Source: a virus. Taken from it: 64,000 nucleotides of DNA. The DNA lies in IMG/VR virus record IMGVR_UViG_3300009506_000017, positions 7,327 through 71,326 of that record. One strand, written 5' to 3'. The translations under genes were made by a program, and so were the position numbers. Below the pieces are notes generated by a model. It searched no databases. It had not been told where the DNA came from and saw only the letters and a list, made by a program, of their open reading frames with translations. This document shows, one piece after another, positions 37,487 through 39,145 of this stretch; position 1 is the first letter of the stretch, and each line of letters starts with the position of its first letter.

Positions 37487-38101
37487 ATGTACAACAAACT
37501 GCGATATCGGCTCAAGGGCATCCAACCGATGATTATGGCCAACGGACGAATGGCCGACCCACTGGATCCATTCGCTAAGCTACTGCACAAATTGGCAATC
37601 AAGAAAAACAAGGTGGACAAGGACCATATGGACATGGCTCACGTTGAATGGGCTGGATGTCTGTACCACACCGATGGCGACATAAGCTTCAACGGTGTCA
37701 ACGTCATCTTCGACGAGTCCATGCGAGTCATTGTTCCGGCAGAAAATATCAAGCGACTCATCCGAGACGGTGCTGCAAAAAGCCGGGAAGGCAAGTTGGT
37801 AAAAGCGGGTGTCATCATCCCCTCTGATCCATTGTTGAACTATGGCAACGGTCCACCCAACATCAACGAACTCATGAAGCTACACCGGTATTCGTATCGG
37901 AAGCGAGTCGGGCTCAGGGGGAGCTCGGTCATGCGAACACGGCCGATTTTTCGACAATGGTCACTCGATCTGGACATTGAACACGACTCGACCATTATCG
38001 ACGCGGACAAGATCGACACCGCGCTCACGACAGCCGGTCACGTAATTGGCTTGTCTGACTGGAGACCAGACACCGGAAGATTCATTGTCGAAAAACTCTG
38101 A
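37487..38101 (+). CDS. Solo RAMP-superfamily (Cas7-like) RNA-binding protein
   Basis: N-terminal strand RLKGIQPMIM, helix IVPAENIKRLIRDGA, VMRTRPIFRQWS, C-terminal Gly loop AGHVIGLSDWRPDTGRF; GAGGAGG RBS. Confidence 0.8.
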   Translation: MYNKLRYRLKGIQPMIMANGRMADPLDPFAKLLHKLAIKKNKVDKDHMDMAHVEWAGCLYHTDGDISFNGVNVIFDESMRVIVPAENIKRLIRDGAAKSREGKLVKAGVIIPSDPLLNYGNGPPNINELMKLHRYSYRKRVGLRGSSVMRTRPIFRQWSLDLDIEHDSTIIDADKIDTALTTAGHVIGLSDWRPDTGRFIVEKL

Positions 38102-38655
38102 CCATCCGGGCGTGACAACCCTGATGGTCACCAATATCGGAGCGGAATGGACGGGACCGGAAGGCAACCCACCGGAGCCCAGCGCAGCGGAGAGCAGTGG
38201 AATGCACGGCAGCGGACCGGAGAGCAAACCAACGGAGCCCACGACTGGTGTGACAGCCCTCGTGGGCGCAACGCAACCCACGGCACCGCAAGGGAAAGGA
38301 CAGGAGCGGAGCCCAGCGCAGTGGATTGGAATGCAACGGAGTGGAGAGCAAACCAACGGAGCCCACGACTGGTGTGACATCCCTCGTGGGCGCAACGCAA
38401 GGCGAACGGATCCCAGTGCAGGGGAGAGGACTGCAACGGGCCGGGGAGCAGCGGACTGCAGCGGACTGGAGAGCAAACCAACGGAGCCCACGACTGGTGT
38501 GACAGCCCTCGTGGGCGCAACGCAATTCACTGCACCGCAAGGGAAAGGACCGGAGCGGAGCCCAGCGCAGTGGAGCGGAATGCAACGGAGCGAACCGGAG
38601 AGCAAACCAACGGAGCCCACGACTGGTGTGACAACCCTCGTGGGCGCAAAGGAGT
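38101..38655 (+). ncRNA. Putative guide-RNA array: four [SSA-NN] pentamer tracts separated by conserved hairpins
   Basis: 53-bp block GGAGAGCAAACCAACGGAGCCCACGACTGGTGTGACAnCCCTCGTGGGCGCAA at 38219, 38343, 38468 and 38597; 77 of 82 pentamers start with GGA, GCA or CCA. Confidence 0.8.
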
Positions 38656-38662
38656 AACTGCA

Positions 38663-39145
38663 ATGGACATTCACCCTGTCGACGTTGCGCAACTTCAGAA
38701 GGGCGACGTTATATCAGTTGAACGAGTCGAATCAATCACTGGAACCAGACGCGATACGCAAGAATTTGACTTTGCTCTGATGTCTCTTCGTGACTTCATA
38801 GAACGGGAGAGCGCCAAGGTTGGTGACCCACTTCTGTGCAGAACCCGAAACGGGGATCTGATCGTGATGCATGATGCGGAAGCGGTTCATTACACGCGTT
38901 CCCAGTTCTGCTGTGGAGAGCAAAAGATGTACCGCAACATGGCGAGAATGATGGCAGTAGACCCATCGAAACTGTCGGAGAACGAACTCAAGACATACGA
39001 CACCAACATGCGCAATTGTGGTGCGAAGATTGCGTCCCTGTCTGCCATGACGTCAGGCAAGCGAACGATCAGCATTCGCAGAGACGGAAACCGACTTCTC
39101 GTAGATTCTGCTGGAACAAACGATGAAGACACATCCGTACGCTGA
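38663..39145 (+). CDS. Hypothetical protein directly downstream of the array
   Basis: AAGGAG RBS at the array end, ATG 38663. Confidence 0.75.
   Translation: MDIHPVDVAQLQKGDVISVERVESITGTRRDTQEFDFALMSLRDFIERESAKVGDPLLCRTRNGDLIVMHDAEAVHYTRSQFCCGEQKMYRNMARMMAVDPSKLSENELKTYDTNMRNCGAKIASLSAMTSGKRTISIRRDGNRLLVDSAGTNDEDTSVR

What the first reader, a model, noticed from the sequence alone, without database searches (positions are those of the whole stretch)
38139..38596. Units 1, 2 and 4 conserve NN while exchanging scaffold triplets
Seen: across the 16 variable pentamers of U1 and U4, only 3 of 16 triplets are identical, but 10 of 16 dinucleotides are, and five of the other six differ by one base. 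U2 shares the CC AG AA..GC GC GC GT..AT AC run with U4, while U3 is unrelated. Neutral divergence of duplicates would not spare NN specifically. Inference: information sits in NN, triplets are interchangeable, and three guides cover variants of one target while U3 aims elsewhere.
Basis: partly seen in the sequence, partly recalled or inferred. Interest (0 to 1): 0.85.

Follow-up and report, generated by a model that had tools for sequence, protein, structure and literature searches.

The report
Phage VIPR guides sharing one code
This stretch is the guide part of a four-unit VIPR RNA array (a CRISPR-like, RNA-guided DNA-silencing system of phages first described in 2026), and three of its guides carry almost the same two-base code on differently spelled scaffold triplets, which fits the published rule that only the two-base positions specify the target.

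Summary
U1 and U4 share 3 of 16 triplets and 10 of 16 NN dinucleotides. A permutation test gives P = 3e-5 for the NN identity, and no other register exceeds 3 matches. U3 is unrelated. One correction: U2 and U4 are recent duplicates with 14 of 15 triplets identical, so triplets are exchanged only between U1 and the U2/U4 pair.

The locus is a VIPR system, known from three 2026 bioRxiv preprints. It has a lone Cas7-like Vipr gene (37487-38101; AF2 pLDDT 93; top fold hits Csm3/gRAMP). Four vrRNA units follow, each a pentamer tract, a constant 25-nt block and a hairpin. A small accessory gene closes the locus (38663-39145). This scan has already reported VIPR on at least 16 other genomes.

Two things are unusual here. 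The scaffold is GGA/GCA/CCA (never CGA) instead of GGY. The Vipr has Ala where the solved SUSP1 Vipr has the His that reads the first G, the only such case among 158 relatives.

"Three guides, one target family" stays untested. Eleven pattern scans of virus, metagenome and genome collections, plus scans of the phage's own genome and 90 related VIPR loci, gave only chance-level matches.

The parts
37487..38101 (+). vipr gene: a 204-aa stand-alone Cas7-like RAMP protein (P0001). The longer 250-aa ORF from 37349 is not supported by homologues.
   Evidence: Called product is 204 aa. AF2 mean pLDDT 93.3. Foldseek PDB top hits are all Csm3/gRAMP/Cas7-11, E 1.6e-5, probability 1.0. VIA-align Z 10.5. 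2018 relatives at E<=1e-3. G-loop D191-W192-R193 and thumb R152 are kept; Ala18 stands where SUSP1-type Vipr has His17.
38100..38129 (+). Diverged leader hairpin: a 7-bp stem with a different sequence and the same GTGACA..CCC loop motif. It overlaps the vipr stop codon.
   Evidence: Sequence; alignment and consensus fold of the five hairpin copies.
38139..38218 (+). U1 variable guide tract, 16 pentamers.
38219..38267 (+). Constant 3' tail of U1: five invariant pentamers (38219-38243) running into an 8-bp hairpin (38237-38267).
   Evidence: Identical block at four places; hairpin predicted in the consensus fold and in the single-sequence fold.
38268..38342 (+). U2 variable guide tract, 15 pentamers; close duplicate of U4.
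38343..38391 (+). Constant tail of U2 (block plus hairpin).
38392..38467 (+). U3 variable tract (76 nt): twelve in-phase pentamers after a 1-nt phase slip near its 5' end. Its NN string is unrelated to the other units.
38468..38516 (+). Constant tail of U3.
38517..38596 (+). U4 variable guide tract, 16 pentamers.
38597..38645 (+). Constant tail of U4, directly followed by the AAGGAG ribosome-binding site (38649-38654) of the next gene.
38663..39145 (+). vap-like accessory gene, 160 aa, of no known family.
   Evidence: No Pfam or PHROG hit. Homologues lie next to vipr in 16 other loci. AF2 pLDDT 82. Fold search gave only non-significant winged-helix-like hints, best E 0.24.

Best explanation
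The region is the guide portion of a VIPR vrRNA array of an uncultivated marine-sediment phage.

Mechanism, by analogy with the SUSP1 and Pseudomonas fulva systems studied in the preprints. The array is transcribed with or after vipr and cut into four RNAs of about 125 nt. Vipr protomers polymerise along each RNA, one per pentamer. They bury the three scaffold bases in protein pockets and present the two NN bases. The NN string pairs with double-stranded DNA that reads NN-x-NN-x, with one target base skipped per unit (usually the codon wobble base). The bound filament then silences transcription of a competing mobile element.

Because only NN is read, guides aimed at related sequences must keep their NN string, while their scaffold can drift within what the protein tolerates, here GGA, GCA or CCA. 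U1 and the U2/U4 pair therefore most likely recognise related target sequences, such as alleles of one gene in competing phages. U3 recognises something else.

Shown here: the anatomy, the statistics, the RAMP fold, the homology to the studied Vipr clade, and the co-occurrence of such tracts with the gene in 75 of 86 related loci.

Inferred: expression, processing, filament formation, the 1-nt-skip rule for this lineage, and the shared target.
For: Protein. The fold is Cas7/Csm3-like. tblastn matches proteins of Felixounavirus and other cultured phages at about E 6e-24. The Felixounavirus (bumzen) homologue carries H17, K33, R39, E71, M72, K82, K88, R138, C173, D177, W178 and R179 at exactly the residue numbers cited for SUSP1 Vipr.

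Association. 75 of 86 loci encoding a homologue have 5-nt periodic GG-type tracts within about 1 kb on the same strand. These include cultured phages bumzen, LESphi2, LittleE and MakoManhole.

Published code and mechanism.

The tract is no more structured than shuffled sequence (z = 0.19), and the hairpin tail is conserved.

NN against triplet statistics. At equal NN divergence (7 of 32 bases for U1-U4, 6 of 30 for U2-U4), scaffold position 2 differs at 12 of 16 pentamers in U1-U4 and at 0 of 15 in U2-U4 (Fisher P = 1.6e-5). So the NN likeness of U1 to U4 is not residual similarity from a recent copy.

Covariation. All eight loci with Ser before the G-loop D-[WFY]-R motif in which a tract was found use A at scaffold position 3, this window among them (L015, also Ser, showed no tract); loci with Gly, Cys or Leu there use C or T.
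Against: No target was found for any of the four guides, so neither the skip rule nor the shared target is verified for this phage.

No RNA data exist. The only run that holds the sequence is a DNA metagenome kept as contigs.

The scaffold departs from the published GGY. The protein lacks the His that reads G1, and the alignment also places His34 and Ala97 at K33 and K82, residues whose alanine mutants abolish silencing in SUSP1. Function in this lineage is therefore assumed, not shown.

Three related guides within one array were not seen in any of 252 other tracts, so this array may be atypical.
Confidence: 0.85

Rival explanations
1. U1, U2 and U4 are simply descendants of one ancestral guide that are drifting apart, decaying or being retargeted. 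Their NN likeness is leftover ancestry and there is no common target family.
For: U2 and U4 are evident recent duplicates, with 14 of 15 triplets identical. No targets were found.
Against: Between U1 and U4 the scaffold has been randomised (3 of 16 triplets, position 2 identical in 4 of 16), yet 25 of 32 NN bases are kept. U2-U4 show the same NN divergence with no position-2 change (Fisher P = 1.6e-5). One neutral process cannot give both patterns. NN in U1 and U4 must be held by selection, or set independently by similar targets.
Confidence: 0.2
2. The scaffold triplets are not neutral. The G or C at scaffold positions 1 and 2 carries extra information, for example a preference for the skipped target base or for protomer geometry, so U1 and U4 differ functionally despite similar NN.
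For: The triplet set is restricted: CG-A never occurs among 75 triplets of the form [G/C][G/C]A, and the positions are not independent (P = 3e-5). The constant block keeps its triplets in all four units. The G1-reading His is replaced by Ala in this protein alone.
Against: In the solved SUSP1 complexes all three scaffold bases are flipped into protein pockets and make no contact with the target. Position-2 identity between U1 and U4 is statistically compatible with plain randomisation.
Confidence: 0.1
3. The tracts are not guide RNAs. They are a protein-titrating RNA leader (TRAP-like: triplet plus 2-nt spacer) or DNA iterons of the nearby replication module.
For: The 5-nt period resembles the TRAP binding site (my own knowledge; this was my first reading). 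A helicase gene lies 1.5 kb downstream.
Against: The adjacent protein belongs to the Vipr family, for which guide function was shown experimentally. The tracts are strand-specific and follow the gene across very distant phages. The variable positions are exactly those the published code uses.
Confidence: 0.03
4. The NN identity is a chance product of a skewed NN composition, with many GC and CC dinucleotides.
For: GC makes up 15 of 62 NN, and three consecutive GC units sit in the middle of U1, U2 and U4.
Against: Permutation that keeps the composition gives P = 3e-5. All shifted registers give at most 3 of 16 matches.
Confidence: 0.01

Closest known systems
VIPR systems, nearest to type II of Escherichia phage SUSP1 and the Pseudomonas fulva prophage (bioRxiv 10.64898/2026.04.26.720920, 10.64898/2026.04.26.720927, 10.64898/2026.10.15.759431)
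   Same: A lone small RAMP protein with the G-loop D-W-R and the thumb Arg. RNAs made of 15-16 variable pentamers (conserved triplet plus variable NN), followed by an invariant structured 3' tail. A small accessory gene. Phage-borne. Several guides per locus.
   Different: The scaffold is GGA/GCA/CCA rather than GGY; GGY>GGA was among the scaffold changes that abolished silencing in SUSP1. Ala replaces the His that reads G1. The whole array sits between vipr and the accessory gene. The tail starts with five invariant pentamers and ends in a plain hairpin, not the SUSP1 pseudoknot. Three of the four guides are related to each other. The accessory protein shows no detectable sequence similarity to the Felixounavirus one. 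Targets are unknown.
Cas7 backbone of type III CRISPR-Cas effectors (Csm3/Cmr4, gRAMP/Cas7-11)
   Same: The same fold (Foldseek probability 1.0, VIA-align Z about 10). The same principle of one protomer per fixed number of guide bases, with a thumb that interrupts pairing.
   Different: A 5-nt rather than a 6-nt period. Three guide bases are displaced per unit instead of one. No CRISPR repeat-spacer array, and no Cas10, Cas5, Cas6 or Cas1/2. No Rfam CRISPR repeat hit in the window.
TRAP-trp leader RNA of Bacillus (triplet plus 2-3 nt spacer wrapped on a protein ring; from my own knowledge)
   Same: An RNA with about a 5-nt period in which the protein reads the triplets.
   Different: In TRAP the spacers carry no information. 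Here the two-base spacers are the informative part, and the protein is a RAMP filament rather than an 11-mer ring.

Membership tests
VIPR | Vipr protein: a minimal RAMP with RRM core, G-loop and thumb | tested here: met
   AF2 pLDDT 93. Csm3/gRAMP/Cmr4 are the top hits in three fold libraries.
VIPR | Sequence homology to the experimentally studied Vipr clade | tested here: met
   tblastn E about 6e-24 at 29-30% identity to Felixounavirus proteins. The bumzen homologue carries the SUSP1 contact residues at identical numbers.
VIPR | Residues that hold the scaffold bases: G-loop D177/W178/R179 and thumb R138 | tested here: met
   D191, W192, R193 and R152 in the window's protein.
VIPR | His17, which hydrogen-bonds G1 of the scaffold | tested here: not met
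   Ala18 stands in its place. It is the only Ala among 158 representatives and 91 loci; 145 of the 158 have His.
VIPR | vrRNA: 9-16 tandem pentamers of GGY or a related consensus alternating with hypervariable NN | tested here: met
   There are 15-16 variable plus 5 constant pentamers per unit. Triplets are GGA 36, GCA 25 and CCA 14 of 79 in-phase pentamers, a related but not canonical consensus.
VIPR | Invariant structured 3' tail after the tract | tested here: met
   A 25-nt block plus an 8-bp hairpin is conserved in four units. A fifth, diverged copy keeps a stem of different sequence.
VIPR | Adjacent vap accessory gene | tested here: met
   A 160-aa gene whose homologues flank vipr in 16 other loci. 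Which of vap1-6 it is was not determined.
VIPR | Expressed small RNAs that co-purify with Vipr | not testable with these tools
   No RNA run holds the locus.
VIPR | Natural targets found by the 1-nt-skip rule at 80% NN match or better | tested here: inconclusive
   Scans that required an exact part-match, then scored the rest, and a mismatch-tolerant local scan. The best hits were 27 of 32 in cellular membrane and sugar-metabolism genes, at the rate expected by chance.
CRISPR-Cas type III | CRISPR repeat-spacer array and a multi-subunit effector (Cas10, Cas5, several Cas7) | tested here: not met
   Only one RAMP gene. The neighbouring ORFs have no cas families. No Rfam CRISPR repeat in 64 kb. 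The period is 5 nt, not 6.

The most novel reading that the evidence does not exclude
This lineage runs an altered scaffold code: G or C at positions 1 and 2 with CG excluded, and A at position 3. It is read by a Vipr that has lost the G1-reading His and has Ser before the G-loop motif. If so, its RNAs would be orthogonal to GGY systems, and its scaffold bases would behave like synonymous sites. The U1/U4 pair would then be the first natural case of two guides held on one target family by selection, or derived independently from it, while their scaffolds were fully re-spelled. That would give a way to date guides and to ask how VIPR arrays gain new guides without an adaptation module.
Probability: 0.25. 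Interest if true: 0.6.

Novelty: new variant of a known kind. Interest (0 to 1): 0.4.

Why it matters
It was published in 2026, so the finding confirms that rule rather than discovering it.

What it adds is modest but usable. It is natural comparative evidence for the code from within a single array: NN is kept while the scaffold is scrambled. It also gives a scaffold variant (GGA/GCA/CCA) paired with specific changes in the RNA-reading residues of the protein. That points to how scaffold specificity is set, and to possibly orthogonal VIPR pairs for multiplexed use.

If the three related guides do cover alleles of one competitor gene, it would show how a system with no adaptation machinery keeps up with target variation: by duplicating guides and editing them.

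Tried and rejected
1. My first reading was a TRAP-like protein-wrapping leader or a set of DNA iterons. I dropped it once the neighbouring protein folded as Cas7 and the VIPR preprints were read.

2. Coding potential. The unit lengths (124, 125 and 129 nt) are not multiples of three, and all frames are open only because T is rare. The tract is not coding.

3. Rfam and tRNA scans of the window and of eight related loci found nothing.

4. Close DNA or protein relatives of this phage: none in the phage collection or IMG/VR. So no orthologous array exists against which to test whether the NN excess recurs.

5. [quoted passage not shown] - A merged U1/U2/U4 pattern over units 1-13 found 0 hits in GTDB genomes and 0 in JGI metagenomes.
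The flanks match at chance. The best was 27 of 32, in glycosyltransferase-like, aminotransferase and permease genes.
- U4 halves in IMG/VR: best 24 of 32.
- Units 3-14 in GTDB genomes: 5 hits in unrelated bacteria, at most 26 of 32.
- U3: 0 hits, then 1 hit at 20 of 24 with its flanks at chance.
- The collection scans accept only exact matches to a pattern, so a target with scattered mismatches would have been missed.

6. Population variation. The one run that holds the phage is kept as contigs that break inside the array, so it gives no variant information.

7. I looked for the same pattern (similar NN, different scaffold) among 252 tracts of other loci. None was found. Similar pairs came only from near-identical contigs, or from orthologues in which NN changed and the triplets did not.

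8. Fold of the accessory protein: no significant match.

Full report
**What is there**

The interval 38102-38662 is a 561-nt gap between two + strand genes. It holds five copies of a hairpin. The first copy (38100-38129) is diverged: its stem has a different sequence but its loop motif is the same. The other four are near-identical.

Four tracts lie between the hairpins. Cut in the register of the following hairpin, each is a run of pentamers of the form [GGA, GCA or CCA] + NN. Each tract has 15-16 variable pentamers, followed by five pentamers that are identical in all four units and run into the 8-bp hairpin stem. The tract is no more structured than shuffled sequence (z = 0.19). Unit lengths of 124, 125 and 129 nt rule out a conserved reading frame. 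No Rfam family and no tRNA matches.

**Check of the observation**

The counts are exact. U1 against U4 gives 3 of 16 triplets and 10 of 16 NN identical, with five of the remaining six NN one base apart.

Shuffling the order of pentamers 200,000 times gives an expected NN identity of 2.6 and P = 3e-5. The triplet identity of 3 is slightly below the expected 5.9 (P = 0.08). Registers shifted by one to four pentamers give at most 3 NN matches, and a pentamer-level alignment that allows gaps returns the ungapped register. Without the first two pentamers, which are constant in U2-U4, the result is 9 of 14, P = 5e-6. U1-U2 gives 7 of 15 NN (P = 3e-4). U3 matches nothing (0-1 NN).

The title needs one correction. 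U2 and U4 share 14 of 15 triplets and 10 of 15 NN, so they are recent duplicates in which NN changed and the scaffold did not.

The two comparisons make a useful contrast. NN divergence is equal (7 of 32 against 6 of 30 bases), but scaffold position 2 differs at 12 of 16 pentamers in U1-U4 and at 0 of 15 in U2-U4 (Fisher P = 1.6e-5). A single neutral process cannot give both. In the old or independent pair, NN has been held while the scaffold was re-spelled. In the young pair, NN moved first.

**What it is**

The upstream gene product (204 aa, 37487-38101) has no Pfam hit and only an unnamed PHROG. It belongs to a large family, with 2018 representatives at E <= 1e-3.

With ten homologues it folds at pLDDT 93. 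Every top match is a Cas7-type RAMP:
- Csm3, gRAMP and Cas7-11 by Foldseek (E 1.6e-5, probability 1.0).
- Z 10.5 by VIA-align against all PDB representatives.
- Cmr6 and type III RAMPs in AlphaFold DB clusters.

I fetched 80 IMG/VR loci that encode a homologue, plus six from other assemblies. In 75 of these 86 loci there are tracts with a 5-nt period within about 1 kb of the gene, on the same strand. They have GG at two positions and a lineage-specific third base, A, C or T.

Cultured phages carry the gene and the tracts too: Felixounavirus (bumzen, wV8 and others), Pseudomonas LESphi2, Mycobacterium LittleE and Gordonia MakoManhole.

A look-up of this scan's earlier notes pointed to 2026 preprints, which I then read. 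They describe the VIPR system: the Vipr RAMP protein plus vrRNAs of alternating GGY and NN. In those papers:
- One protomer binds each pentamer and flips G1, G2 and Y3 into protein pockets.
- NN pairs with double-stranded DNA while skipping one target base per unit.
- The skipped base usually falls on the codon wobble position.
- Specificity is reprogrammed through NN alone.
- Natural targets are satellites, prophages and other VIPR loci.
- A small vap gene enhances the effect.

The bumzen homologue has every contact residue at the numbers given for SUSP1 Vipr, which ties the window's protein to the studied clade. The window's downstream 160-aa gene has homologues next to vipr in 16 other loci, so it is a conserved accessory gene. 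Its fold gave only non-significant winged-helix-like hints.

**How the finding reads in that light**

The U1/U4 statistics are what that code predicts for two guides that recognise similar sequences: NN is constrained by the target and the scaffold only by the protein.

"Interchangeable" needs qualifying:
- Among 79 in-phase pentamers the scaffold doublets before A are GG 36, GC 25, CC 14 and CG 0, and the two positions are not independent (P = 3e-5).
- The five constant pentamers keep their triplets in all four units.
- In SUSP1, altering the GGY scaffold, GGY>GGA included, abolished silencing.

**What is unusual here**

Canonical vrRNAs use GGY. The first preprint mentions NNNGG, YNNNG and NNNNG variants. 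This array has A at position 3 and G or C at positions 1 and 2.

Across the loci, all eight with Ser just before the G-loop D-[WFY]-R motif in which a tract was found use A at position 3 (L009, L020, L029, L033, L041, L062, L063 and this window; L015, also Ser, showed no tract). Those with Gly, Cys or Leu there use C or T. This agrees with the structural statement that G-loop residues shape the position-3 pocket.

The window's protein also has Ala18 where SUSP1 has His17, the residue that hydrogen-bonds G1. It is the only Ala among 158 representatives and 91 loci, and this is also the only array in which GG is relaxed to GG/GC/CC. That is a single co-occurrence, so it is a hypothesis and not a demonstrated link.

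The alignment also places His34 and Ala97 at K33 and K82, but that region contains a 14-residue insertion and the alignment may be off.

**Targets**

- No match above a shuffled-guide null exists in the phage's own 72-kb record or in 90 VIPR loci.
- The collection scans allow only exact IUPAC matches. I therefore used patterns merged over U1, U2 and U4, and half-guides, and scored the remaining positions afterwards.
- Nothing beyond chance appeared in IMG/VR, JGI metagenomes or GTDB genomes. The best hit was 27 of 32, in cellular membrane and sugar-metabolism genes with Ala-rich stretches. The best in IMG/VR was 24 of 32.

The claim that U1, U2 and U4 cover variants of one target therefore remains an inference. 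I put it at roughly 0.55-0.6. The sequence comes from a marine-sediment metagenome, and the only run that holds it is DNA kept as contigs.

**Generality**

Among 252 tracts of other loci I found no second case of similar NN on a different scaffold. Similar pairs were either the same phage assembled twice, or orthologous guides in which NN had changed and the triplets had not: L024/L025 with 10 of 12 NN and 11 of 12 triplets, and L081/L082 with 13 of 16 NN and 16 of 16 triplets. This fits NN as the fast-evolving, target-tracking part. It also shows that a trio of related guides within one array is uncommon.

**Verdict**

The core interpretation is correct but already known, and this scan has reported VIPR on at least 16 other genomes. 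The locus is a VIPR member with a non-canonical scaffold and a matching change in the protein. The shared-target claim is plausible and untested.

Noticed in passing
L094:2972-3036 and 3088-3152; L093:5330-5400; L008:3960-4020: In actinophage VIPR arrays (Gordonia MakoManhole, Mycobacterium LittleE, and a WhiB-carrying contig) each pentamer tract is followed by a tRNA-like minihelix: a T-arm with a GGTTCGA-type 7-nt loop stacked on an acceptor-like stem. This hints at processing by host RNase P or RNase Z. ARAGORN calls no tRNA there, and the first VIPR preprint does not mention tRNA-like tails.
   Followed up: partly
Loci L009, L020, L029, L033, L041, L062, L063 and window 37487-38101: The residue just before the G-loop D-[WFY]-R motif tracks the third scaffold base. 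Ser goes with A (GGA-type tracts); Gly, Cys or Leu go with C or T. This is a protein-RNA covariation that could be used to predict scaffold type.
   Followed up: partly
window 38219-38243, 38343-38367, 38468-38492, 38597-38621: Five pentamers with the same triplets and the same NN (GA AA AC GC CG) end every tract and overlap the hairpin stem. They look like protomer-binding units but cannot be target-specific, so they may act as a spacer or assembly platform between guide and tail.
   Followed up: no
window 38392-38410: U3 has a 1-nt insertion shortly after the hairpin, making it a 125-nt unit. Its first three pentamers are therefore out of phase with the other twelve, and it may be a shorter guide.
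   Followed up: no
L009:3090-4580 and L029:3770-5400: In the nearest GGA-type relatives the tracts occupy three successive gaps: before vipr, between vipr and the accessory gene, and after it. Each gap holds two tracts split by a conserved ~45-nt hairpin element. Each tract ends in GG followed by a T-rich run, about 30 nt before a start codon or at a terminator.
   Followed up: partly
window 38646-38665: The array's last hairpin is followed directly by the AAGGAG site and the ATG of the accessory gene. Its translation may therefore depend on how the array transcript is processed.
   Followed up: no
L091:3430-4000 and 5020-5550 (Escherichia phage bumzen): Felixounavirus vrRNA units share a conserved 5' element (AAAAGGTCTTT..AGAGGGTCTTTTAAT) and a 3' hairpin. 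GenBank annotates part of one tract only as 'repeat_region', so these arrays are unannotated in more than 100 deposited phage genomes.
   Followed up: no
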